Part shown: positions 2,571 through 43,120 of the stretch, piece after piece
Layout of the letters: each line of letters begins with the position of its first letter
Numbering within the stretch: the first letter of the stretch is position 1
Source of the DNA: Escherichia phage PGN590
Sequence record: NC_049830.1
Strand: one strand, 5' to 3'
DNA length: 49,043 bases
Made by a program: the position numbers and the translations under genes
Notes under the pieces: generated by a model
Seen by the model: the letters and a program-made list of their open reading frames with translations, nothing else
What the model was told of the DNA's origin: nothing
Databases searched by the model: none

Positions 2571-3157
2571 TTGATCTTAACGTGTTTCCACTGGACAGTT
2601 TTGATGATCTCGTCAACTGTCTTTTCTGGATCGCCATCAGTCATTGTGAAGTCGTAATGTTTTATGCGGTGATGGTATCCGCTCAGGTCAATATAGTTTC
2701 GTGAATCGCCATCAAACGTGAAACCTTCGCGGTGCAGTCTGCAAATGTGAACTTCATGGCCTGCCTTAACGAGCGGCTTGATTTCTTCAGGAAATCCGCC
2801 ATCACTAATTACAACAGCCAAATCCCTGCACATCTCGTGTACTTGCTCAACCATGCGATTTCCGAAATATTGCTCGCCAAAAGCTGGCTTCATAATTTCT
2901 TCGCTAATCCAGATCATGAACTGGCGAGGCGACTTGCCTTGCAAGATTGCTTGAGGCTTTTCTTTCTGCTCGCGGTCGTTATACAGATCAATAAACTCGT
3001 CATATCGGTAAACGCCAAGCATGGAGAATGCAATATCAAACATAGGCTGTTTAAACGACGCTTTAACGGCTGCGTAACGATGACCTGTTAAGTATGCCGC
3101 AAGCGTATCCTTGCCAACTCCTGGCGGTCCGTTAAGGATTATAATGTCTCGCTTCAT
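2567..3157 (-). CDS. P-loop nucleotide/polynucleotide kinase-like protein
   Basis: Walker A LNGPPGVGKDT near N-terminus; GGAG RBS before ATG 3155-3157. Confidence 0.6.
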   Translation of the reverse strand: MKRDIIILNGPPGVGKDTLAAYLTGHRYAAVKASFKQPMFDIAFSMLGVYRYDEFIDLYNDREQKEKPQAILQGKSPRQFMIWISEEIMKPAFGEQYFGNRMVEQVHEMCRDLAVVISDGGFPEEIKPLVKAGHEVHICRLHREGFTFDGDSRNYIDLSGYHHRIKHYDFTMTDGDPEKTVDEIIKTVQWKHVKIK

Positions 3158-3351
3158 ATTAATTTTCTCCATATTGGATTGAATGTTTACCTGGACGCTG
3201 GCGCTTCTTGCGATAGCGTTGATTCGTCTCTTGGTGCTCGTGGTAGCTGTATCGCTTCTTTTTGGATACGATTTTCTCGAAGTTTCGCATCTTCATGATC
3301 TCATGTTGTTATCTCAACATAGCGCACTGCATGAATGCGCTATAGCAAGAA

Positions 3352-3537
3352 TCACCACTTAAATCCGCTTTCATCCCGCACAATCTGGTAAAGCGCCACC
3401 CAAAACCACACAAACCAGAAAATCAGAACAAGATGCTGATCTTTATCAGTGCAATCACACTCTTTAACCAATGCGCGGAAGATGAATAATCCTGAAATAT
3501 AAAAGAAAACCACTAAAAATACAAGTAACCAAATCAT
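3352..3537 (-). CDS. small membrane protein
   Basis: AAGGAGG RBS; two hydrophobic segments (LLVFLVVFFYISGLFIF, LIFWFVWFWVALY). Confidence 0.45.
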   Translation of the reverse strand: MIWLLVFLVVFFYISGLFIFRALVKECDCTDKDQHLVLIFWFVWFWVALYQIVRDESGFKW

Positions 3538-3611
3538 TTATTGCCTCCTTCAATTACCAGCGTGTAAAGCAGAACTGGATTTTGCATGTCGCGGCGGCGC
3601 GGCTCTAGTTG

Positions 3612-3797
3612 CTAATCTAGCCATGCACATTTACCGTTCGCCACAATATAACCCACCAGGTCACTAAGTTTTGATATACCGTCTCGACTAATCACGTTGT
3701 ATGCAACGTCTTCGCCGTCAATGGAATGGATAGCAAAGAAACTTGGCGCGCCGTCAATCTTGTCTACCGCTTTGAAAAACTCCACTTTATTAGCCAT
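3612..3797 (-). CDS. hypothetical protein
   Basis: ATG 3795-3797 preceded by conserved leader CATCGACAACAAACGAGGATTAAATC. Confidence 0.5.
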   Translation of the reverse strand: MANKVEFFKAVDKIDGAPSFFAIHSIDGEDVAYNVISRDGISKLSDLVGYIVANGKCAWLD

Positions 3798-3873: not shown

Positions 3874-4582
3874 CAGCGTTAACAAAATCGCCGTCACTAT
3901 GATCGAATGACCAGGTACATCCAGAATCATCATGAACTATAAAGCTCTTGTCATGATAAGAAACAACGTCATAGGCTATTCCTCTAGTAAAGCTGGCATT
4001 GACCAAGCTGTCTTTGCTGCCGACGAATCTGGCGCGCTTCGTGATCTTGATGACCTCAACGCCGTGCGATTGGATGTGACTATGTGGCTTGTCGTATTCC
4101 GTGACCTGATAGGTTGTGATTCCCAGGCTGCGGAAGTGCTTAACCACGTTAGGCGAATCATCAAAAGCGCACACAATGTTTTCCAGTCCGATAGCGCGTA
4201 AGACTTCTTCTTTGATGATTGTGTCTTTGCGGTTATCTTCCTTGCGGCGCATGATTAACGCATCGTACTTGATGCCGCTTTCGTTAAGCCATTTGCAGGT
4301 GTCCGCCATTACTTCGTCGCTACGTCCGGTCAGGATAACAATGGCAAATCCTGACATCCATAATCCGTTAACCACTGCAACCGTGCTCTTAATCGGCGAA
4401 TCTCCAACAGCCGCCTTATTGAACTCAGACCAGCTTTCTGTAAGGTGCAAATCTTCTGTCGGAAGCAGGTGCAAGCGATGCGTTCCATCGGATAAAGTGC
4501 CGTCAAGATCAACAATAACAATCGGCTTGCTGGTGGAAAAATGGTATTTGCTGCCCCAAAGTTCAAATTCGTATTTTTTCAT
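3869..4582 (-). CDS. HAD-superfamily phosphatase (polynucleotide 3'-phosphatase-like)
   Basis: DxDxT motif VIVDLDGTLSDG near N-terminus; ATG 4580-4582. Confidence 0.6.
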   Translation of the reverse strand: MKKYEFELWGSKYHFSTSKPIVIVDLDGTLSDGTHRLHLLPTEDLHLTESWSEFNKAAVGDSPIKSTVAVVNGLWMSGFAIVILTGRSDEVMADTCKWLNESGIKYDALIMRRKEDNRKDTIIKEEVLRAIGLENIVCAFDDSPNVVKHFRSLGITTYQVTEYDKPHSHIQSHGVEVIKITKRARFVGSKDSLVNASFTRGIAYDVVSYHDKSFIVHDDSGCTWSFDHSDGDFVNAE

Positions 4583-4593
4583 TATCAAACCTA

Positions 4594-4815
4594 TCAATTA
4601 AAGTGGATTTGCTTGTATTCGATTTCATCTGCCAGATCATTTAACTTATCCGCCAGCTTGCGCACCTGGTCAATGGTGAGTATTGACCTAAAATCCGGCC
4701 TGCGCCCACCCTCAAACGTGCCATCAATAAACACGCGATCTCCGAACTTATATACTTCAAGTGAATCACCATGATTATCAATAAACTTGTGCTTGACGCG
4801 CTTATTTGTTTCCAT
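4594..4815 (-). CDS. hypothetical protein
   Basis: ATG 4813-4815 with GAGGAAG RBS. Confidence 0.5.
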   Translation of the reverse strand: METNKRVKHKFIDNHGDSLEVYKFGDRVFIDGTFEGGRRPDFRSILTIDQVRKLADKLNDLADEIEYKQIHFN

Positions 4816-5032
4816 CTTTCACTTCCTCAAATTCAGCAATTACCATAGCGTGCGCCATAACCTTAGTGCCTTCGCCTCCGTTCAGGAACATGCGATGCCC
4901 TTTACTATTGCTCACGTAAAATGATCCGGTTGATGATTTCATCTTTTGCGCCGTATAGATTTCGCCAGGCTTGAACATACCAGAGCAAGCATAGTTAACG
5001 GAAACGCATTTCATCTTCTTTTTAATGTACAT
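4802..5032 (-). CDS. hypothetical protein
   Basis: start moved to ATG 5030-5032 (AAGGA RBS); track start lies inside repeat motif. Confidence 0.45.
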   Translation of the reverse strand: MYIKKKMKCVSVNYACSGMFKPGEIYTAQKMKSSTGSFYVSNSKGHRMFLNGGEGTKVMAHAMVIAEFEEVKDGNK

Positions 5033-5086
5033 CGTTTTATATCCTTCATTGAAAGTGAGGCCATTATACCTGGCCCCACATTTGAG

Positions 5087-5106
5087 TTTTAACAAAAAGT
5101 GCTATT
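5087..5106 (-). promoter_or_regulatory. intergenic 20-bp repeat, promoter-like
   Basis: canonical copy; consensus TATAAT at plus-strand 5063-5068, 21 nt downstream. Confidence 0.6.
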
Positions 5107-5330
5107 TCTTAATACATAGCGTGTGAGTGTACGCATAAAACCTGTTGTTGCTCTTGATCTGCTCTCGTGCCTCAATGCAAGATTGCTGGCTATTCATTTC
5201 GATATGGTCAACGCCGCCATCAATCATAAGAATCAGTAAAATCCAAGTAGCCATCTCTCACCTCAATAAAAGATAAACAGGTAGGCAAACAATCCGATCC
5301 ATGCGGCGACGTGCGCCGCAGTGAACAAAC

Positions 5331-6212
5331 TCAAATCTTTACCTCCCACTTAACCATCGTTCCGCGCTTGATGCTGATCTCACCTGCAACAGTCCGGTTT
5401 TTAGAGCCGCCATAGTGAAGCAGGAGGATAACAACATCATCATGAATCTCGATAGTCTTTGGTTTCGCCGTTAATTCATACCAGATGCCGTCATCAAGCT
5501 GGACTCCTTTTAGCGTAGCTGCAAGTGGCATATCTTCAATGGCGCTCTGACTTACGAGGTTTCGCGCAACAATGCCATGCCCATTGATTGTTTGACTGTG
5601 AATCTGTTCACCAATACGTCGCGCGGCGTTATCTATAGCCTGAGCAATGTGTGACTTACCGCCACCGATTGGCGCATCTCCAAACAAGTGTTTTGTAATG
5701 TCTTCCACATAGTAAATCTTATCTTTTTCATTGTGCGGATTGTATTTATTATGACCATTAACAAAGAAATCCACCTTAAGCTCTGATTTCTGACCATCGC
5801 TATAAACGCCATTGTCGCGCGATGTGTAGCGAATCGTTGAATTACCAGCGGAGCGGAAAGTGATCGGATATTTGATATTATCCACGTCTAAGCACCACAA
5901 TTTTTTGTAGTCGCATGTATTCATCTTGATCATCGGAATCTCTGCGCGTTCCGGTGAGCGCACCGGTAACACCTGGCCCCTGTATGGCTTGTAGTGGAAA
6001 CATGTATATCCTGGCATTGCATAGCCGTAGTCTTTTCGCGAGTTATAGTGCTTGTTATGCACATCAATGAAGTACTCAATCTCCATTGATGAAACACCAG
6101 GCTTTCCGTATTCGTTAAACGTAGTGCATGTATTTTCATCGGTGAACATGAAGTGTCCGACCCCCTTTGATTGGAAGGTGATCGGGAATTTGATGTTAGC
6201 AAGTTTTAACAT
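5331..6212 (-). CDS. hypothetical protein with tandem duplicated N-terminal domain
   Basis: AGGAGA RBS; NIKFPITFQSKG...FIDVHNKHYN repeated as NIKYPITFRSAGN...FVNGHNKYNP; IGGGKSH Walker-A-like segment. Confidence 0.55.
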   Translation of the reverse strand: MLKLANIKFPITFQSKGVGHFMFTDENTCTTFNEYGKPGVSSMEIEYFIDVHNKHYNSRKDYGYAMPGYTCFHYKPYRGQVLPVRSPERAEIPMIKMNTCDYKKLWCLDVDNIKYPITFRSAGNSTIRYTSRDNGVYSDGQKSELKVDFFVNGHNKYNPHNEKDKIYYVEDITKHLFGDAPIGGGKSHIAQAIDNAARRIGEQIHSQTINGHGIVARNLVSQSAIEDMPLAATLKGVQLDDGIWYELTAKPKTIEIHDDVVILLLHYGGSKNRTVAGEISIKRGTMVKWEVKI

Positions 6213-8161: not shown

Positions 8162-8180
8162 AATAGCACTTTTTGTTAAA
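8162..8180 (+). promoter_or_regulatory. intergenic repeat, promoter-like (first rightward promoter)
   Basis: TACATT 22 nt after TTGTTA; drives 8244 gene; dyad element just upstream. Confidence 0.55.
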
Positions 8181-26326: not shown

Positions 26327-26605
26327 TTAGTGCTTTGCCTCTTCTTTGGTGTGTAATTTAATCAGATTTTCCATCATGCGATCAGAACTTTCTTTTACAG
26401 CCTTGATTGCTTCATCGTTTTCTTCGCTCATTGTTGCAATAAGTACGACGTTATCGACCGCATCAATTACTTTTCTGATGTACTCCATTTCTTCTTCGCC
26501 TGCAGTTGGATCAAGTGGCGCCACAAAGTCACGAAGCAACATAGCCATGCCAGTTGCAAAATTGTTGATATGAACTGCCACCTCTGACACTTGCTTGTTT
26601 TCCAT
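26327..26605 (-). CDS. hypothetical protein
   Basis: GAGGAAATAAA RBS; between exonuclease and Erf. Confidence 0.45.
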   Translation of the reverse strand: MENKQVSEVAVHINNFATGMAMLLRDFVAPLDPTAGEEEMEYIRKVIDAVDNVVLIATMSEENDEAIKAVKESSDRMMENLIKLHTKEEAKH

Positions 26606-27748: not shown

Positions 27749-28023
27749 GATTTGCCCTCATTGGTTGGTATGTCTGCATTGTAGCTATTTGATGCGTTTA
27801 GTCAATAGTTATTTTGTTTTTTCTGTTCTAACAACGTTCTCACCAACTTTGGTAACAAAACTTACATGTAAGAGATTGATAAATATCAGTGTTGTCTTTT
27901 TGTTCTCTTGTTCATCCATTTGCGCCGGATATAGATATATAGACACACAAACACTAACACATACACAACCAAATAAAAATTACCAGACACACAAAATCAC
28001 ACAAAACATAGATAACAAGAAAA

Positions 28024-28063
28024 AACAAATATAAATATATACACTACTAACTCATTGATTTAT
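28024..28063. repeat. conserved block shared by both strand-switch control regions (copy 2)
   Basis: AACAAATATAAATATATACACTACTAACTCATTGATTTAT; flanked by CA-rich and TATATA tracts. Confidence 0.6.
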
Positions 28064-28172
28064 ATATATGTATATATACTTATCTGTATGTATAGCGCTC
28101 TATTACTGTTCACTTTTTGAGCTAAATTTAAGCCTCCGCAGATTTGAGAACGAAGGAAAACAAAAAGAACAG

Positions 28173-28191
28173 AATAGCACTTTTTGCTAAA
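28173..28191 (+). promoter_or_regulatory. intergenic repeat (variant TTGCTAAA), promoter-like
   Basis: in control region 2; TATAGT at 28211-28216; drives lipoprotein gene. Confidence 0.5.
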
Positions 28192-28247
28192 CGCACGCCG
28201 CAAGATCGTGTATAGTTGCAACTAACAATAACTAAGGAGAAAACAAG

Positions 28248-28475
28248 ATGAAAAAATTAATCGCCGTTTTGATTGCAGCCGTAACCCTGACTGGTTGCGC
28301 AAATATGCCTAAGCGTGAATGCACGGCTATTTATGAAAATAGCGGTATGCAGTATTCAGTTGCTATTTTTGGAGTAAAACGAGTTGGCGACCGCACTCTT
28401 GTTAAGGCTGGCTATCCGTTTAATTTTCAGTGGGTAAGCATTGATAACTTTAAAAACGCTGATTGCAGTATGTAA
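28248..28475 (+). CDS. small lipoprotein, Cor/Llp-like superinfection-exclusion candidate
   Basis: AAGGAGA RBS; lipobox AAVTLTGC; 75 aa with two distal Cys; adjacent to tail genes. Confidence 0.5.
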   Translation: MKKLIAVLIAAVTLTGCANMPKRECTAIYENSGMQYSVAIFGVKRVGDRTLVKAGYPFNFQWVSIDNFKNADCSM

Positions 28476-28485
28476 ATAAAAATAA

Positions 28486-28506
28486 AGGGGCAAAAGCCCC
28501 TTTTTC
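28486..28506. terminator. bidirectional intrinsic terminator between convergent genes
   Basis: AGGGGC-aaaa-GCCCCT flanked by A-run upstream and T-run downstream. Confidence 0.7.
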
Positions 28507-28507
28507 A

Positions 28508-29179
28508 TTAGTCGTAAATATCAGTCTTAATGGCTGTTATTGCATTGCCATTATTTGTATACCCAACAACAGATCCGGTTGCATTATTACCGCTTGCTGC
28601 TGATATTCTTGTTGTTGACCCGTTAAACCTAGCGCCTGTGTATGCAGTAATAGAAATCACCTGTGGTTGACCTTGAACAAAAAATCTAATTAGCGTAGAA
28701 CCCAATATTCCAGGTGATACTGCATAACTTCCTGATAACGTTTCATCTATATTTATACCACCATTAACTCCAGGTGCCCCAACGGTCACAAGATCTGTTA
28801 AAACCTTTGATTCATTTGTTAATATACACGTACCTCCTTCATCCCAAATTGCCATTCCATATTTTGGTAATGGCTGAGGGAATCTTGCAAAAACATAAGC
28901 TGTTAAAGTGTGTGATTGACCAAATGGATTGCTTGAGCTAACAACTATACTGTCTCCATTTCTTCTTGATCCAACTGTTGTTGGTTGTGCTGTGTAAGTT
29001 GTTTTCAAAAATGCTATTGCCGGATAACTTGAACTGATTGGAATATTAGTTGATGCTGATTGAAAAACTCCGTTAGCGGAAGATGATACATTTACTTTTT
29101 TATATAATACAAAAGGCGTTGAATTTGGCGTAACAAATGGATTACCGTTATTAAGATTTAATAAAGCACCGTAACTCAT
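28508..29179 (-). CDS. tail fibre-associated protein
   Basis: GGAG RBS; Ser/Gly/Thr/Asn-rich; downstream of J-like gene. Confidence 0.45.
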   Translation of the reverse strand: MSYGALLNLNNGNPFVTPNSTPFVLYKKVNVSSSANGVFQSASTNIPISSSYPAIAFLKTTYTAQPTTVGSRRNGDSIVVSSSNPFGQSHTLTAYVFARFPQPLPKYGMAIWDEGGTCILTNESKVLTDLVTVGAPGVNGGINIDETLSGSYAVSPGILGSTLIRFFVQGQPQVISITAYTGARFNGSTTRISAASGNNATGSVVGYTNNGNAITAIKTDIYD

Positions 29180-29180
29180 A

Positions 29181-29486
29181 TTAAGATTTCTCCACAAAAA
29201 CTACCAATTCACAAGCAGACGCAGCATAATTTCCAGGCCCAACGTTACTTGCAGGTGAAACTTTTATTGTATTTCCTGATGCTACTATATTCCTCCCCAC
29301 GCCAACATCACCTTGATCAAGAGCAATTGCGAATCCGACTTTCATCCCGCTTGGTATTGTAAAGGACCAAGATCCACTTGTTTGGCCTTGACTTAAAGAA
29401 ATGATGCCAACAACTGAAACAGGCTTGATCCCATAGTTATTATAATTACCGTTTGCATCCCACGTTGAAATCCCATACTCAGCCAT
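29181..29486 (-). CDS. tail-associated protein
   Basis: GGAGG RBS before ATG 29484-29486; between J-like gene and next tail gene. Confidence 0.45.
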   Translation of the reverse strand: MAEYGISTWDANGNYNNYGIKPVSVVGIISLSQGQTSGSWSFTIPSGMKVGFAIALDQGDVGVGRNIVASGNTIKVSPASNVGPGNYAASACELVVFVEKS

Positions 29487-29529
29487 TATTAAACCTCCAT
29501 AAATGCGGGGCAATCGCCCCGCTTTGATT

Positions 29530-32500
29530 TTACCACGCACCAGTCAGCCTACCAATCTGAACACGCAAAACGCCGTTTGCATCCCTAACGCTGATCGTTT
29601 CGTTTGTCATTTTCATGGCTCCCTCTCCAGGAGTAGAACCATAATTTTCAAACGTGCCGTTTTTATCCAGCCTCCATCCTGCTTGATTCCAAACGTAATT
29701 GTTTGATTGGATGAAGTTACCGATCATGGCGTTTGTGATTGATCCGTTTTTCACTAACAGGCTGTTAATGAAAACTTGGTTATTTTCAACCACAAAAGGC
29801 AATGTATACGACCCTCCGGTCGAACTTGTCATGATAGCGAACCTGTTCGCATCAAACAAAATCTGCGAAATAAGGCCGGATGAACCCTGCGAAAGCTGCA
29901 TTACCATTCCTGCGCTGTACTGCTGCCCGTTGTAGGTCAGTCCCAATTTCATTGCGTACTGTGCGCCAACTCCATTAACACCAGCCCATGAATCAAGTTT
30001 TTCTGTCAGCGCTGATTCAACATCTCCAAACTTCGCTGTTAATGCCGTATCAGCCGAAACGCGCGCCTCTGTTTCGCTTGCAATCGCTTCCTCAACCCGC
30101 GTTAGTTGCCCCTGAATATCATCACCAATCTGTGATTTCAATTCCTCAATGGCTGTTGCTCGCGTTTCCGATTCTGTTGCAATTGCCTGATCAAGCCTTG
30201 TTACTTCGCTAGTTATTTCCTCGTCAAATTCAGCCTTGAGTTGCGTCATTGCGGTAACGCGCGCCTCAGTTTCATCTGCGATCAACTGTATTGATTGCCT
30301 GAATTCGGCTTTGCGTTTTCCGTTTTCCTTCCTCATAATCCTAACGTCTGCATCATTCGCCAATGCGTTTTGAATGATGCTTTGTGCCTGATCCTTGATT
30401 TTGTTTGCGCTATCAATGGCATTCTCTTTCAGATCCTTTCCTGCTTCGGTATCAAAAATCTTATCAAGAATATCGCCTAAAACAGCCTCCACATCATCTG
30501 AAGCCATGCCTCTAACAAAATCAGTCCAGCCGGAAACGTTGCCGATTCTGTCAACGCTGCGGATTCTATACCATACAACATGACCAGCCGGAAGCGTGCC
30601 GTGCCAATATTCATATTGTGGGTATGGTATCAGCGTTAACAGGCTTGAGTTTTCAGCCGTTCCATCAGGCGATTGATGAAGCTCAATGTATGCCGTGTCT
30701 CCGCTGCCTTCTGGCATTCCCCACTTAACACGAATGCCAAACACCTCATTGTCGGATGCAGTTAAGTTAACTGGCGCGCCTGGCTCTCCTACCTTACCAG
30801 TCAGTGAAGCTGTCACAATTCTGGACCATGGAGACGTAGAACCGGAAGCAGAAACAGATCTTACCCTTACCTGGTAGTTTCCTGAATAAATACCTTCAAC
30901 CTCAATTTCTTTGTTTGCAGTCTGTGGTGTATTCAGCCAGTTGCCATCACCTTTTCGCCACTGCATTTCATACAGCGATGCGTAAGGTACTTTATCCCAC
31001 GACACAACCATTGTTTCAACGCTTGCACCCTGGACAATTCGCGAGTATGAGGATATTTGCACGTTTTCCGGTGCTGCCATTGTGTCAGGCTGGACAATTG
31101 AAGTCGGCCTGTCATCAATGTTTACTCCGTAATCAATCTCGTCGTATTTGTTCGGATCATATTCAACAGCTGTGATGGAGTATGTAAATTCATCATCATC
31201 ATCACCTTTGCCGATACTCGTTACAACGTATTGCTGCAATGCAATATCAGTGCGGTCGATTGCAAAAACCGTGTCAGGTTTAACCTCAAATCCAAACCCA
31301 ATGTTTAGCTCAATGGTTTTTCCGTCACCGCTTACCTTTGAGATTGTGCGCTTAACTGGCTTTCCATCCGGCTTGTTGATGATAATGAAATCACCTGGTC
31401 GTGCGTCAATCTTAAACGGAGCGAACACTTGCAAGCCGGAAACTTCCATCACGCGCCCTGATAGGTTTAATTTAAGGTTGCTGCTGTGAAAATTGTCAGC
31501 AATAGCAATCACATCACCTATTGATGGGATCATGCCTTCAAGTCCAGTAGCAAAGTTTACCGTAGTGCTGCGCAAGTTGGTTTTTAGTATCCATCGACCG
31601 CGCCGATTAGCCTCACTTCTGCGTGTACATCCGATCGCTGTTATGCTTGTAGGATTGTATCCAAAGCGCAATGATGCCTCGGTGTCGAATACGCCCTCTA
31701 CGTCCTGTTGATACATGTTTTGTTCGTCATCGAACGTCACGTTGCACTGCGTGTACATGCTCTTTTCGCTTGCTGTTGTGTACTGAAAATCACCATCAAC
31801 AACGTTGTCATTGGTGAAGATGTACGATGGATCGCGCGGCTTATCAATGACGATTGACAAGCTCTCCCCATTCCAAAAGCTCATGCCTCGGAAGATTGAG
31901 CAAATATCACGAATAAGCTGATAAGCCTCAATCTGGCTTTGAATCACAACGTCGCATAGATAACGCGGCTCTGTACCGCCTTTTCCATCCGGCACTTTCT
32001 GATCGCAGTATTGCGCCGCTTCGTAAAGACTCCATTTGTCAACCTGCACACCAAGTTCTCGCTGATCTAATCCGTATCGCTGGTTTGTGATAATGTCATA
32101 AAGAACCCACGCCGGATTGTTCGACCACGCTTTCTTGAAAGTACCATCCCATGAACCGTGATACTCTCGCATTACCGGATCGTAATTGCTCGGAACATTA
32201 ATCAACTTCCATTTCTTCTTGATTGAAATGTTAGGGATCTGGTTAGGGAATAACTCACTGTCAAATTCAACATATACAAGACCAGTCAGAGGATAACGGA
32301 ATTTTGCATCAATAACCTCAGCGTAACTTTGTAGCTTAATCAGATCGGTAACGCGAGAAGATGTGCTGTCTGCCGTAACCCTTCTAACCCTAAGCAATAC
32401 GCGATCATTAAATGCCGGAAGGTCAATCCTTCGGCTTCTGTCGTAACCGGAACGCGTTTTACCTTCGATGGTGTCTAGTAATACTTCTTTGTAAGAGTCT

Positions 32501-32955
32501 CCGTCAACAGCCATATCAACAGCATAAGTAACCTTAACGCCTACAAGATCGCCGTTATCCTCTTGCTTAATGCCTGTTGGCATTAGCATTTTGATTCTGA
32601 TAGCCGATAATGTTTTGTTGGTCACAGAAATTACATAAGGATTTGATGTAGTAATGTCACGCGCCAGCGTCACTTCGCTTGATGTGTCAGTAAACCCCTG
32701 AATGTAATCTTGCGTCTGTGTTCCAGGTCGAAATTCAGCTTTCACACCCTGGTAGTTAACAGTTCCATCATCTGCAATTACCGGAACATCATCAAGATAC
32801 AGATCGCGAAGTGTAAAATCTGGATCGCACTCGCCATCGGAAACGGCAAGAAGGATTTTGATTTTGTTGATTGAGATCAGGTTATCTTCCATCTCTTTCG
32901 GAACATAAGGTTTTGATGATCCGCCCTTACTTCCCGTTATCATATTTTCAGCCAT
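29530..32955 (-). CDS. central tail fibre / tip attachment protein (lambda J-like)
   Basis: block YHGSWDGTFKKAWSNNPAWVLYD...QYCDQKVPDGKGGTEPRY matches lambda J as recalled; coiled-coil C-terminal region. Confidence 0.9.
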   Translation of the reverse strand: MAENMITGSKGGSSKPYVPKEMEDNLISINKIKILLAVSDGECDPDFTLRDLYLDDVPVIADDGTVNYQGVKAEFRPGTQTQDYIQGFTDTSSEVTLARDITTSNPYVISVTNKTLSAIRIKMLMPTGIKQEDNGDLVGVKVTYAVDMAVDGDSYKEVLLDTIEGKTRSGYDRSRRIDLPAFNDRVLLRVRRVTADSTSSRVTDLIKLQSYAEVIDAKFRYPLTGLVYVEFDSELFPNQIPNISIKKKWKLINVPSNYDPVMREYHGSWDGTFKKAWSNNPAWVLYDIITNQRYGLDQRELGVQVDKWSLYEAAQYCDQKVPDGKGGTEPRYLCDVVIQSQIEAYQLIRDICSIFRGMSFWNGESLSIVIDKPRDPSYIFTNDNVVDGDFQYTTASEKSMYTQCNVTFDDEQNMYQQDVEGVFDTEASLRFGYNPTSITAIGCTRRSEANRRGRWILKTNLRSTTVNFATGLEGMIPSIGDVIAIADNFHSSNLKLNLSGRVMEVSGLQVFAPFKIDARPGDFIIINKPDGKPVKRTISKVSGDGKTIELNIGFGFEVKPDTVFAIDRTDIALQQYVVTSIGKGDDDDEFTYSITAVEYDPNKYDEIDYGVNIDDRPTSIVQPDTMAAPENVQISSYSRIVQGASVETMVVSWDKVPYASLYEMQWRKGDGNWLNTPQTANKEIEVEGIYSGNYQVRVRSVSASGSTSPWSRIVTASLTGKVGEPGAPVNLTASDNEVFGIRVKWGMPEGSGDTAYIELHQSPDGTAENSSLLTLIPYPQYEYWHGTLPAGHVVWYRIRSVDRIGNVSGWTDFVRGMASDDVEAVLGDILDKIFDTEAGKDLKENAIDSANKIKDQAQSIIQNALANDADVRIMRKENGKRKAEFRQSIQLIADETEARVTAMTQLKAEFDEEITSEVTRLDQAIATESETRATAIEELKSQIGDDIQGQLTRVEEAIASETEARVSADTALTAKFGDVESALTEKLDSWAGVNGVGAQYAMKLGLTYNGQQYSAGMVMQLSQGSSGLISQILFDANRFAIMTSSTGGSYTLPFVVENNQVFINSLLVKNGSITNAMIGNFIQSNNYVWNQAGWRLDKNGTFENYGSTPGEGAMKMTNETISVRDANGVLRVQIGRLTGAW

Positions 32956-38860: not shown

Positions 38861-38873
38861 TTCTTTCTCCTTG

Positions 38874-38892
38874 ATAGCACTTTTTGTTAAAA
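38874..38892 (+). promoter_or_regulatory. repeat copy oriented antisense to the late genes
   Basis: ATAGCACTTTTTGTTAAAA on plus strand between major tail and G genes; TATCAT 22 nt downstream. Confidence 0.4.
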
Positions 38893-38959: not shown

Positions 38960-39622
38960 TTATGCTACTTGAGAAGGTAGGAAGGTGAATCGACCTTTCA
39001 GGGATACAGAAAGGGAAACAGTTTCCATTTCGTTAACGGTCGTTTGTGGGATCTCGTTAAACGAAAGCACACCAGCCCAGCAACGCATCTCTTTTGCTTT
39101 TGGTACATACATGCGAAGAGCGGTTACTTCTCCTGATTCATCTGCTGAACGCAATAGCGGATAGATCGCGTTATCGTATTCGTGCGCAAAAGTGTAGGTA
39201 AGAGAAACGGCGCTCTTATATGTAGGTAACTGCTGTTCTTGATCGTCTGCCAAACACTGATAAGTGTAGTATTGCTGTTCGCCGCCGTCCTGCGACAAAT
39301 CTTGAACGCAAGGAATCTCAGTCCATGCATCAATTTTTGCAAAAGATGCAGTACCGCCAGACGGGAAAACGTTCTGATCAGTAGTATCTACACCTTCAAG
39401 AGTCACGCTTGTTTCTTCGCCGTTAGCCTTTACACGCATAACACGATCAATCAGCTTACCCCAAGAAGACGCAGTGATGATAACATAATCACCTTTCTTG
39501 TACGAAGTGCCGCCAGATGCAACGGTGAATACAGGATCTTTAGCGTTTGATACTGCCGTTGCTTGGATTTCGCTGCCGCGATTGCTCTCAACGAAAATTT
39601 GCGATCCATTTGGTAAATGCAT
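38960..39622 (-). CDS. major tail protein
   Basis: AAAGGAG RBS; position immediately upstream of chaperone genes; strong terminator after stop. Confidence 0.6.
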   Translation of the reverse strand: MHLPNGSQIFVESNRGSEIQATAVSNAKDPVFTVASGGTSYKKGDYVIITASSWGKLIDRVMRVKANGEETSVTLEGVDTTDQNVFPSGGTASFAKIDAWTEIPCVQDLSQDGGEQQYYTYQCLADDQEQQLPTYKSAVSLTYTFAHEYDNAIYPLLRSADESGEVTALRMYVPKAKEMRCWAGVLSFNEIPQTTVNEMETVSLSVSLKGRFTFLPSQVA

Positions 39623-39626
39623 AATT

Positions 39627-40025
39627 TTACTCCTTTGTTTCAATTCGAACATAAAATCTTACAGGGAGAAGCCAACCGCTTTCACTCTTGAGCGGCTTGT
39701 GAACTCTTGCACCCTCATATATATAACCATGCTCCAACATTTTACCATCGTAAAAGAATTGCGCAATCTCTTTAGCGAGAACGCGCGGCCTGTCAGTTCC
39801 GTAACCTGGTGGAAACACAATGCCAACCTGAATCATTCCGATATAGGAAACGCATTTTCGATCCAATGACAAGTATTCTGTATCAACTTCGGCATAGTCA
39901 AACTTCAACCACGGCGAACCGTCACCAGGTGGCGTAAACTCTACGTTTTCATAAGCGATCTTGAATCTGCTCTCGTATTCAGTCGCCAGCGCCTTACGCG
40001 CTGATAGCATTAATTCATAGTGCAT
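39627..40025 (-). CDS. tail terminator/completion protein (by position)
   Basis: synteny between head-tail joining genes and major tail gene. Confidence 0.45.
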   Translation of the reverse strand: MHYELMLSARKALATEYESRFKIAYENVEFTPPGDGSPWLKFDYAEVDTEYLSLDRKCVSYIGMIQVGIVFPPGYGTDRPRVLAKEIAQFFYDGKMLEHGYIYEGARVHKPLKSESGWLLPVRFYVRIETKE

Positions 40026-42586: not shown

Positions 42587-42632
42587 TTTCTTCCTCCATA
42601 TATAAAGGTCGTTAGTATGTAACGGACCAATG

Positions 42633-42650
42633 ATAGCATTTTTTGTTAAA
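42633..42650 (+). promoter_or_regulatory. repeat copy oriented antisense to the late genes
   Basis: ATAGCATTTTTTGTTAAA on plus strand upstream of capsid gene; weak TATGAG 22 nt downstream. Confidence 0.35.
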
Positions 42651-42669: not shown

Positions 42670-43104
42670 TTATGAGTCAATGCTTACCCCGACAATATAT
42701 GAATCATGATCAACCTTTACATGTTCGCCAGTAAAGATCCAACCGCTCAGTAAGTCGCCTTCACTGTATGCCGCATCTCCATCTTGCGTTACAAATACTT
42801 TATCTCCATATTCTGGCGCTTCGCTCTCAGAAGTTAAGCACCAAACAATACCTCGACTAACAACACTAATTGGATCACCATCCTCATATATGCACGAGTC
42901 CAGCGGCCTTACTGCCACGCCAATAACAAGATCCCCATTAATACTGGCTATTTTGTATCCATTTGTTATATGTGATAGTCGAACAATCTTACCTGGCGCA
43001 ATAAATTCATCTCCGCACACGAAAGATCCGTTAATCACCATTATTGAAGAATCGACCATGCACCCTGGCGACTCAACGCCAACAATGACTGAATAATCAC
43101 TCAT
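42670..43104 (-). CDS. head structural/decoration-like protein (paralogue of 43151-43663)
   Basis: start set to ATG 43102-43104 (MSDYSV, GGAG RBS); shares GxVWxL...DGxxxxxSGxIxxxWIxTG pattern with neighbour. Confidence 0.45.
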   Translation of the reverse strand: MSDYSVIVGVESPGCMVDSSIMVINGSFVCGDEFIAPGKIVRLSHITNGYKIASINGDLVIGVAVRPLDSCIYEDGDPISVVSRGIVWCLTSESEAPEYGDKVFVTQDGDAAYSEGDLLSGWIFTGEHVKVDHDSYIVGVSIDS

Positions 43105-43120
43105 GAGAAACTCCAAATAT

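What the first reader, a model, noticed from the sequence alone, without database searches (positions are those of the whole stretch)
28248..28475. Small lipoprotein next to the tail genes: candidate Cor/Llp-type receptor-blocking exclusion protein
The 75-aa product has a signal peptide with lipobox LTGC and two distal cysteines, lies on the opposite strand directly beside the tail fibre genes, and has its own promoter-like repeat (28173) and a bidirectional terminator (28486-28506). This matches the size, lipidation and genomic position of lipoproteins that inactivate the outer-membrane receptor after infection. The resemblance to specific Cor/Llp sequences is from memory and not verified.
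Basis: partly seen in the sequence, partly recalled or inferred. Interest (0 to 1): 0.5.

Follow-up and report, generated by a model that had tools for sequence, protein, structure and literature searches.

The report
Cor receptor-blocking lipoprotein of a T1-like phage

Summary
The 75-aa ORF at 28248-28475 (+) is real and is an orthologue of Cor, the phage superinfection-exclusion lipoprotein. It passes NCBIfam's Cor equivalog model (70.4 bits, cutoff 31) and PHROG 1119 (E 3.9e-29). It is 56% identical to T1 Cor and 96-99% identical to proteins annotated as Cor in the closest phages (slyngel, herni).

The window is a Hanrivervirus genome (Drexlerviridae). The gene order is the same as in T1: J-like tail tip, two small candidate receptor-binding genes, a shared terminator, then cor converging on them.

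The whole cassette is 96-99.6% identical to that of phage JakobBernoulli. That phage's terminal receptor was determined experimentally as FhuA.

Lipobox Cys17 and the pair Cys25/Cys73 are conserved across the family. They align with the lipid Cys and the Cys11-Cys58 disulphide of T5 Llp. Llp in complex with FhuA (8A60) is the top solved-structure match to the predicted fold, though not a statistically significant one.

The "promoter-like repeat" is also real: it is one of 16 copies of a conserved 19-mer that usually sits in front of genes. The terminator hairpin is real.

No exclusion phenotype has been tested for this protein. Verdict: observation confirmed, interpretation supported, already known, low interest.

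The parts
28173..28191 (+). Conserved 19-mer AATAGCACTTTTTGCTAAA, one of 16 copies in the window. Candidate promoter or regulatory element for cor.
   Evidence: Conserved upstream of cor in JakobBernoulli and herni, and upstream of the Cor-like gene of KarlJaspers.
28211..28216 (+). -10-like hexamer TATAGT, 19 nt after the 19-mer.
   Evidence: all 16 copies carry a -10-like hexamer at 19-20 nt. The generic sigma-70 scan does not call it.
28234..28239 (+). Shine-Dalgarno AAGGAG, 8 nt before the ATG.
   Evidence: read directly from the sequence.
28248..28475 (+). cor: a 75-aa pre-lipoprotein (stop codon included), Cor superinfection-exclusion family.
28248..28298 (+). Type II signal peptide, residues 1-17, with lipobox LTGC. 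The Cys17 codon is 28296-28298. The +2 residue is Ala, which predicts sorting to the outer membrane.
   Evidence: The '+2 rule' is established knowledge of Lol sorting.
28320..28322 (+). Cys25 codon. Invariant; aligns with Cys11 of mature Llp.
   Evidence: PMC9586334
28410..28433 (+). Codons for G55-W62 (GYPFNFQW), the most conserved motif of the family. It aligns with Llp Ile39-Trp46, the segment that occupies the site of the FhuA switch helix in 8A60.
   Evidence: PMC9586334. The correspondence rests on a weak alignment.
28464..28466 (+). Cys73 codon. Invariant; aligns with Cys58 of mature Llp. Predicted disulphide partner of Cys25.
28484..28503 (.). G+C-rich hairpin between the convergent genes: a terminator for the - strand tail operon and probably also for cor.
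   Evidence: Terminators are annotated at the same place in T1 and vB_EcoS_G29-2.
28508..29179 (-). 223-aa protein, PHROG 425, like N15 gp23 and T1 gp31. It is the second gene of the candidate receptor-binding locus. The likely start is the ATG at 29179, not the TTG at 29197.
   Evidence: 98.7% identical to JakobBernoulli bas07_0025.
29181..29486 (-). 101-aa protein, PHROG 557, like N15 gp22 and T1 gp32. It is the first gene after J. The likely start is the ATG at 29486.
   Evidence: 99.0% identical to JakobBernoulli bas07_0024.
29530..32955 (-). J-like central tail tip protein, 1141 aa.
   Evidence: 99.6% identical to JakobBernoulli J.

Best explanation
The gene is cor of a virulent T1-like phage (genus Hanrivervirus). 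It encodes a small lipoprotein that most likely disables the phage's own terminal receptor, FhuA.

Proposed mechanism (all steps inferred):
1. cor is transcribed from its own promoter, facing away from the late tail operon.
2. The pre-protein is exported and lipidated at Cys17, then sorted to the periplasmic leaflet of the outer membrane, because the +2 residue is Ala.
3. A Cys25-Cys73 disulphide closes the small beta-rich domain.
4. By analogy with T5 Llp, the mature 58-residue domain binds the periplasmic face and plug of FhuA. This forces extracellular loops to fold inward, so receptor-binding proteins of FhuA-dependent phages can no longer bind.
5. The result would be exclusion of superinfecting phages and protection of progeny from wasting themselves on cell debris. 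Colicin M and ferrichrome uptake would also be blocked.

Shown here: the gene, the lipobox, the conserved cysteine pair, Cor family membership, T1-type gene order, near-identity to the cassette of an experimentally FhuA-dependent phage, and distant sequence and fold similarity to Llp.

Taken from the literature: Cor of temperate phages inactivates FhuA, and Llp acts from the periplasm by 'reverse allostery'.

Inferred: localisation, disulphide, direct FhuA binding, time of expression and phenotype for this particular protein.
For: Family:
- NCBIfam Cor equivalog, 70.4 bits against a cutoff of 31.
- PHROG 1119, E 3.9e-29.
- T1 Cor, 56% identity.
- The closest relatives are annotated as Cor in RefSeq.

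Gene order: recE, a gap of about 500 bp, cor, terminator, then the gp31-like, gp32-like and J genes. This is identical to T1.

Receptor:
- Identity to JakobBernoulli is 99.6% for J, 99.0% for the 101-aa protein, 98.7% for the 223-aa protein and 96.0% for Cor. The mature Cor domains differ only by L51I and M75L.
- JakobBernoulli's terminal receptor is FhuA (S5 Table of PMC8594841).
- All six BASEL phages listed among the Cor hits (Bas03, 05, 07, 09, 15, 17) use FhuA.
- A published survey links the three-gene cor cassette to FhuA-targeting phages and gives an AlphaFold3 model of T1-like Cor on the periplasmic side of FhuA (PMC13164509).

Llp analogy:
- PDB sequence search: E 0.044 for the single sequence and 1.1e-4 for the profile, with all three cysteines aligned.
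- hhalign probability 97% over the full length and 54% (P 1.3e-4) for the mature domains alone.
- The AlphaFold2 model has mean pLDDT 82. Its top Foldseek PDB hit is Llp in the FhuA complex, 8a60_B, rmsd 2.5 A over 51 columns.
- The top viral-structure hits are exclusion or receptor-blocking lipoproteins of T1-like and T5-like phages.

Mechanism of Llp: PMC9586334. The disulphide is essential for the FhuA interaction, and Cor functionally inactivates FhuA (bioRxiv 10.64898/2026.03.26.714494).
Against: - No experiment exists for this protein or for any Hanrivervirus Cor. I found no paper in the held library that tests T1 Cor directly.
- Fold and mature-domain similarity to Llp is weak: Foldseek E 0.053, TM 0.48-0.57, hhalign 54% without the signal peptide.
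- The family does not fix the receptor. The BtuB-dependent KarlJaspers has a Cor-like protein that still matches PHROG 1119 at E 4e-11.
- The title of Arguijo-Hernandez et al. [quoted passage not shown] I did not read that paper, so how direct the action on FhuA is remains open.
- The promoter is non-canonical: TTGCTA lies 21 nt before the -10, and the sigma-70 scan found nothing on the + strand. The time of expression is therefore unknown.
Confidence: 0.85

Rival explanations
1. It is a Cor-family lipoprotein, but it blocks a receptor other than FhuA, for example BtuB or another TonB-dependent transporter.
For: The same genus contains a BtuB-dependent phage, KarlJaspers. At the same slot it carries a Cor-like lipoprotein with the same promoter and signal peptide, and that protein still matches PHROG 1119 at E 4e-11. 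PMC13164509 also notes Cor-like proteins in BtuB-targeting phages.
Against: The mature domain here is only about 22% identical to the KarlJaspers protein (my count). It is 56 of 58 residues identical to that of FhuA-dependent JakobBernoulli and the full protein is 56% identical to T1 Cor. The adjacent J and candidate receptor-binding proteins are 98.7-99.6% identical to JakobBernoulli.
Confidence: 0.05
2. Cor does exclude FhuA-dependent phages, but it does not simply copy the Llp mechanism. It may need other outer membrane proteins as partners, or it may act in some way other than binding the FhuA plug.
For: The title of Arguijo-Hernandez et al. [quoted passage not shown] The 2026 preprint states that the molecular mechanism of Cor has not been elucidated. 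Similarity of the mature domain to Llp is weak.
Against: The cysteine pair is conserved, and the most conserved Cor motif aligns with the Llp segment that contacts the plug region. A published AlphaFold3 model places a T1-like Cor at the periplasmic face of FhuA with ipTM 0.84.
Confidence: 0.08
3. It is an unrelated small lipoprotein, such as a lysis spanin or a virion assembly factor, or a chance ORF in an A+T-rich spacer.
For: Only the generic signal peptide and lipobox. Weak hits to other lipoprotein families cover the signal peptide only.
Against: Full-length matches to the Cor models. 243 phage records hold full-length homologues. There is no C-terminal membrane segment. The holin, endolysin and spanin cassette lies about 14 kb away in the near-identical slyngel genome. 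Rtp45, the exclusion lipoprotein aimed at LptD (9rps_D), matches only over the signal peptide, E 0.82.
Confidence: 0.02

Closest known systems
Cor of coliphage T1 (ST30, YP_003915.1) and of other Drexlerviridae (slyngel gp31, herni_77)
   Same: Same length (75 aa), lipobox and cysteine pair. 56% identity to T1 and 96-98.7% to slyngel and herni. Same locus: convergent with the J / gp32-like / gp31-like genes across a shared terminator, with recE on the other side of a gap of about 500 bp.
   Different: T1 lacks the 19-mer upstream. It has instead what I read by eye as TTGCAA-17 nt-TACAAT in the T1 sequence. The window protein differs from its nearest relatives by 1-3 residues.
Cor of temperate FhuA-dependent phages (phi80, N15, HK022, mEp167; tested here against HK140)
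   Same: Same family (34-38% identity, E about 1e-10). Same three-gene cassette after J. This is the group for which FhuA inactivation was shown experimentally.
   Different: In HK140 cor has the same orientation as J and the two small genes. Here and in T1 it is inverted and has its own upstream region. The lifestyles also differ: lysogenic conversion there, lytic infection here.
Llp of phage T5 (PDB 8A60 chain B with FhuA; NMR structure 7QJF)
   Same: A small outer-membrane lipoprotein with a disulphide that ties the N- and C-termini together. All three cysteines align. It is the top solved-structure match, and it targets FhuA from the periplasm.
   Different: The papers report about 20% identity. 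Mature-domain profile similarity is marginal (hhalign 54%). The Cor motif AGYPF is not present in Llp. In T5 the gene lies next to the pb5 gene, which is unrelated to the J / gp22-like / gp23-like cassette.
Cor-like lipoprotein of the BtuB-dependent Hanrivervirus KarlJaspers (bas06_0026)
   Same: Same genomic slot, same 19-mer, -10 and 5' leader. The signal peptide is identical in 16 of 17 residues, there is a cysteine pair, and it matches PHROG 1119.
   Different: The mature domain is replaced immediately after the lipobox cysteine (89 aa, about 22% identity). The two small neighbouring genes are inverted and co-oriented with it. The host receptor is BtuB.
Rtp45, the exclusion lipoprotein that targets LptDE (PDB 9RPS)
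   Same: A small phage lipoprotein encoded in the same kind of locus downstream of J in small siphoviruses. It blocks the phage's own receptor.
   Different: No detectable similarity beyond the signal peptide (E 0.82). The receptor is different, and the described mechanism is steric.

Membership tests
Cor superinfection-exclusion lipoproteins (NCBIfam NF047972; PHROG 1119) | Full-length sequence match above the curated family threshold | tested here: met
   NF047972 equivalog: 70.4 bits against a cutoff of 31, residues 1-74. PHROG 1119: E 3.9e-29. T1 Cor: 56% identity, E 2e-23.
Cor superinfection-exclusion lipoproteins (NCBIfam NF047972; PHROG 1119) | Type II (lipoprotein) signal peptide with a lipobox cysteine and a +2 residue that is not Asp | tested here: met
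   MKK, hydrophobic stretch, LTGC. Cys17 is at least 90% conserved. The +2 residue is Ala, and no Asp occurs at +2 in the 23 aligned sequences. Actual lipidation was not tested.
Cor superinfection-exclusion lipoproteins (NCBIfam NF047972; PHROG 1119) | Conserved cysteine pair and AGYPF motif in the mature domain | tested here: met
   C25, G55, F58 and C73 are invariant, and P57 is at least 90% conserved, in 23 sequences.
Cor superinfection-exclusion lipoproteins (NCBIfam NF047972; PHROG 1119) | Encoded next to the J / gp22-like / gp23-like cassette | tested here: met
   PHROG 557 and PHROG 425 genes and J lie directly adjacent. Same order as in T1, JakobBernoulli, herni and HK140.
Cor superinfection-exclusion lipoproteins (NCBIfam NF047972; PHROG 1119) | The phage uses FhuA as terminal receptor | tested here: inconclusive
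   Not measurable for this sequence. Inferred from 96-99.6% identity of the whole cassette to JakobBernoulli, whose receptor is FhuA.
Cor superinfection-exclusion lipoproteins (NCBIfam NF047972; PHROG 1119) | Expression excludes FhuA-dependent phages and blocks colicin M and ferrichrome uptake | not testable with these tools
   Needs expression in E. coli and plating or uptake assays.
Llp (T5 lytic conversion lipoprotein) family | Significant sequence similarity to Llp | tested here: inconclusive
   E 0.044 for the single sequence and 1.1e-4 for the profile. hhalign gives 97% with the signal peptide but 54% for the mature domains only. This supports the same superfamily, not an Llp orthologue.
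Llp (T5 lytic conversion lipoprotein) family | Same fold, with a disulphide linking the N- and C-termini | tested here: inconclusive
   8a60_B is the top hit among 350,542 chains (prob 1.00, TM 0.48/0.57, rmsd 2.5 A), but E is 0.053 and generic Tudor and chromo domain barrels follow closely. The cysteines align with Llp C11 and C58. The Cys-Cys distance in the model could not be read.
Llp (T5 lytic conversion lipoprotein) family | Encoded next to a pb5-type receptor-binding protein gene | tested here: not met
   The neighbours are PHROG 425 and PHROG 557 proteins and a J-like protein, not pb5.
Rtp45-type exclusion lipoproteins that target LptD | Sequence similarity to Rtp45 (9RPS chain D) beyond the signal peptide | tested here: not met
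   The Cor profile matches 9rps_D only at profile positions 5-29, E 0.82.
Phage spanins (outer-membrane lipoprotein component, or unimolecular spanin) | Located in the lysis cassette; a C-terminal membrane segment for unimolecular spanins | tested here: not met
   No spanin family hit. There is no hydrophobic C-terminus. The holin, endolysin and spanin genes lie about 14 kb away in slyngel.

The most novel reading that the evidence does not exclude
Hanriverviruses may keep a fixed 'exclusion slot': the conserved 19-mer, the -10, the leader and the signal peptide. Into this slot recombination drops alternative mature domains exactly at the lipobox cysteine, for example an FhuA-type domain here and a BtuB-type domain in KarlJaspers, together with matching receptor-binding genes. 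On this reading the receptor specificity of Cor-like proteins lies wholly in the 58-72 residue mature domain and could be swapped by design. In addition, the 19-mer, with its unusual 21-22 nt distance from TTGTTA to the -10, could mark a phage-specific promoter class that depends on a phage factor and sets the time at which exclusion begins.
Probability: 0.35. Interest if true: 0.4.

Novelty: already known. Interest (0 to 1): 0.12.

Why it matters
The result confirms that this phage carries a complete FhuA-type host-recognition and exclusion module. This predicts its receptor, and it predicts that infected cells become resistant to other FhuA-dependent phages and to colicin M. That is useful when designing phage cocktails, but it adds no new biology.

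The only modestly new points are side observations:
- The junction between the FhuA-type and BtuB-type cassettes of one genus falls exactly at the lipobox.
- The exclusion gene shares a conserved 16-copy upstream element with many other genes of the phage.

Tried and rejected
- Pfam has no Cor model that reaches threshold. Only LPAM_1 (19.7 bits against a cutoff of 20), DUF6491 and the Phage_lipoprotein family gave sub-threshold, mostly signal-peptide matches.
- The word-indexed protein search returned only six close relatives. The exhaustive search gave 17 representatives, and these were used for the alignment.
- Three long repeat proteins in that list (P0015, P0019, P0020) match part of Cor. 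They were left out of the alignment and not studied.
It was rerun without them.
- Rfam found nothing in the window.
- The generic sigma-70 scan found no + strand promoter for cor.
- A literature search for a described Drexlerviridae promoter motif found nothing relevant. The Rtp genome paper is not held.
- The spanin, Rtp45-type and chance-ORF readings were considered and rejected.
- I could not model a Cor-FhuA complex or read the model's coordinates, so the Cys25-Cys73 distance was not checked.

Full report
**1. The observation**

The region 28248-28475 (+) is an ATG ORF of 75 codons. An AAGGAG Shine-Dalgarno lies 8 nt upstream.

The product starts with MKK, a hydrophobic stretch and the lipobox LTGC (Cys17). 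It has two further cysteines, Cys25 and Cys73.

The ORF is not a chance one. tblastn finds full-length homologues in 243 phage records. Against the nearest relatives most codon changes are synonymous.

The gene converges on the - strand genes at 28508-29179 and 29181-29486 and on the J-like tail tip gene at 29530-32955. Between the convergent genes lies a hairpin at 28484-28503 (8 pairs, 5 of them G-C). It folds at -13.1 kcal/mol on the + strand and -14.7 on the - strand, far better than shuffled controls (z -3.5 and -4.8).

AATAGCACTTTTTGCTAAA is one of 16 copies of a 19-mer (10 of them exact). By my own calculation about 0.01 copies are expected by chance. Each copy is followed 19-20 nt later by a -10-like hexamer, and most are then followed by a ribosome-binding site and a start codon.

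- The neighbours are the central tip gene and two small downstream genes, not the lateral fibre gene.
- One of the "distal" cysteines is only 8 residues from the lipid cysteine.
- The T-run of the terminator is convincing on the - strand only.

**2. What the window is**

The window is a nearly complete genome of a T1-like virulent siphovirus of genus Hanrivervirus (Drexlerviridae, Tempevirinae). It is 94-97% identical to Salmonella phage slyngel and Escherichia phage JakobBernoulli (Bas07).

**3. What the gene is**

| Test | Result |
|---|---|
| NCBIfam equivalog NF047972, "phage exclusion lipoprotein Cor" | 70.4 bits, cutoff 31 |
| PHROG 1119, "Cor superinfection exclusion protein" | E 3.9e-29, full length |
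| T1 Cor | 56% identity |
| Cor of lambdoid phages such as HK140 | 34-38% identity |
| Proteins annotated as Cor or super-infection exclusion protein in slyngel, JakobBernoulli's relatives, herni | 96-98.7% identity |

In an alignment of 23 family members C25, G55, F58 and C73 are invariant. C17, G33, V38, P57 and F68 are nearly so.

The gene order is exactly that of T1: recE, a spacer of about 500 bp, cor, terminator, a gp31-like gene, a gp32-like gene and J. In the temperate phage HK140 the same four genes are present, but cor points the same way as J.

**4. Which receptor**

The window's proteins compare to JakobBernoulli as follows:

| Protein | Identity to JakobBernoulli |
|---|---|
| J | 99.6% |
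| 101-aa protein | 99.0% |
| 223-aa protein | 98.7% |
| Cor | 96.0% |

The mature Cor domains differ only by L51I and M75L.

The BASEL study determined FhuA as the terminal receptor of JakobBernoulli (S5 Table of PMC8594841). It also matched alleles of this locus to receptors across small siphoviruses. All six BASEL phages listed among the Cor hits use FhuA. A 2026 paper reports the same link between the three-gene cor cassette and FhuA (PMC13164509). FhuA as the target is therefore a strong inference, not a demonstration.

One caution applies. KarlJaspers, of the same genus, depends on BtuB. It has a Cor-like lipoprotein at the same slot that still matches PHROG 1119 at E 4e-11. Family membership alone therefore does not fix the receptor. 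Here the assignment rests on the near-identity of the mature domain to FhuA-type proteins.

**5. How it probably works**

The best solved-structure relative by sequence is T5 Llp in complex with FhuA (8a60_B). The E-value is 0.044 for the single sequence and 1.1e-4 for the family profile, and all three cysteines align.

Profile-profile comparison gives 97% probability over the full length, but only 54% (P 1.3e-4) once the signal peptides are removed.

An AlphaFold2 model (mean pLDDT 82, beta-rich) has Llp as its top Foldseek hit among PDB chains. The statistics are weak (E 0.053, TM 0.48/0.57). In the viral structure library the top hits are exclusion or receptor-blocking lipoproteins of T1-like and T5-like phages.

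The literature reports the following:
- It makes loops EL7 and EL8 fold inward over the pb5 binding site.
- Its Cys11-Cys58 disulphide is shared with Cor proteins (PMC9586334).
- The disulphide is needed for the FhuA interaction, and Cor proteins functionally inactivate FhuA (bioRxiv 10.64898/2026.03.26.714494).

In the profile alignment the most conserved Cor motif, residues 55-62 (GYPFNFQW), falls on Llp Ile39-Trp46. That is the segment that takes the place of the FhuA switch helix. This is suggestive only, because the alignment is weak.

[quoted passage not shown] It would then be closed by a Cys25-Cys73 disulphide and jam FhuA from the periplasm.

The separate orientation and upstream element fit expression independent of the late tail operon. 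The timing itself is not known.

**6. Rivals**

- A different receptor target is unlikely, given point 4.
- A mechanism that needs other outer membrane proteins cannot be excluded. The only lead is the title of Arguijo-Hernandez 2018, seen as a reference, and I did not read that paper.
- A spanin, an Rtp45-type lipoprotein or a chance ORF is contradicted.

**7. Novelty**

The gene, its family, its position and its proposed function are all described. The closest genomes already carry the annotation. The finding is correct and ordinary.

**8. Side observations**

(a) The nucleotide alignment of the window, JakobBernoulli and KarlJaspers stays highly similar through the 19-mer, the -10, the leader and the signal peptide. 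Similarity collapses right after the lipobox cysteine codon in KarlJaspers. The exchange of FhuA-type and BtuB-type modules therefore has one junction at the lipobox. In KarlJaspers the two small genes are inverted and co-oriented with the lipoprotein gene.

(b) herni has a 98.7% identical Cor, but its two small proteins are only 61% and 72% identical. A second mosaic junction therefore lies near the terminator.

(c) The 19-mer family has an unusual geometry, and two of its copies point against the structural genes.

Noticed in passing
window, - strand at 1226, 3873, 5106, 6311, 6774, 17396, 18416, 20940; + strand at 8162, 9037, 9543, 11594, 12270, 28173, 38873, 42632: A dispersed 19-mer, AATAGCACTTTTTGTTAAA, occurs 16 times (10 exact). 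Each copy is followed 19-20 nt later by a -10-like hexamer, and most are then followed by a similar leader (CATCRAMAACGA), a ribosome-binding site and an ATG. The distance from TTGTTA to the -10 is 21-22 nt, too long for a classic -35. Several copies have short inverted repeats around the -10. T1 lacks the motif upstream of its cor. This may be a phage-specific promoter class or a regulator binding site.
   Followed up: partly
window 38873-38891 (+) and 42632-42650 (+): Two copies of the 19-mer lie in short gaps between - strand structural genes and point the opposite way. If active they would make antisense transcripts into the 230-aa gene (38960-39652) and the 148-aa gene (42670-43116). The copy at 38873 is followed by the hairpin GGGGCGCAACGCCCC, which reads as a terminator for the - strand.
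   Followed up: partly
L003 (KarlJaspers MZ501090) 4155-5440, compared with window 28130-28480: The BtuB-dependent phage of the same genus shares the upstream element, leader and signal peptide (16 of 17 residues) with the window's cor. Its mature lipoprotein domain is replaced immediately after the lipobox cysteine. Its PHROG 557 and PHROG 425 genes are inverted, so that they form one unit with the lipoprotein gene.
   Followed up: yes
window 28508-29486, compared with L004 (herni) 2758-3706: herni's Cor is 98.7% identical to the window's, but the adjacent 223-aa and 101-aa proteins are only 60.8% and 72.3% identical. The locus is therefore mosaic, with a breakpoint near the shared terminator. 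One Cor allele appears to coexist with quite different alleles of the candidate receptor-binding proteins.
   Followed up: partly
window 27749-28247: The 500-bp spacer between recE and cor drops to 28-31% G+C. It has CA-rich low-complexity runs (AGACACACAAA twice) and ATATA-type direct and inverted repeats (28025-28088). A sigma-70-like promoter for recE lies at 27805-27778 (-), and its -35 region (TTGACTAAACGCA) resembles the cor element (TTGCTAAACGCA). T1 has a spacer of similar size at the same place. Its function is unknown.
   Followed up: partly
P0015 (1018 aa), P0019 (1642 aa), P0020 (410 aa): Three long proteins carry 5-9 tandem repeats that each match part of Cor. An example is P0020, with repeats of the form ...RCYVGFNNSTRRYAVACDG...KLARAGYTSIV...C.... 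They may be Cor-like cysteine-framed modules reused as repeats, or a compositional artefact.
   Followed up: no
window 28508-29197 and 29181-29540 (-): The mechanical ORFs (229 aa from TTG, 119 aa from GTG) are longer than the genes annotated in relatives. The likely starts are the ATG at 29179 (223 aa) and the ATG at 29486 (101 aa). [quoted passage not shown] Neither has a Pfam or NCBIfam match.
   Followed up: partly
window 26327-26605 (-): This 92-aa protein between recE and the Erf-like recombinase matches PHROG 11265, which is labelled 'tail length tape measure protein'. That label is implausible for a small gene in the recombination module, and it has propagated into the RefSeq annotation of slyngel (gp33).
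   Followed up: no
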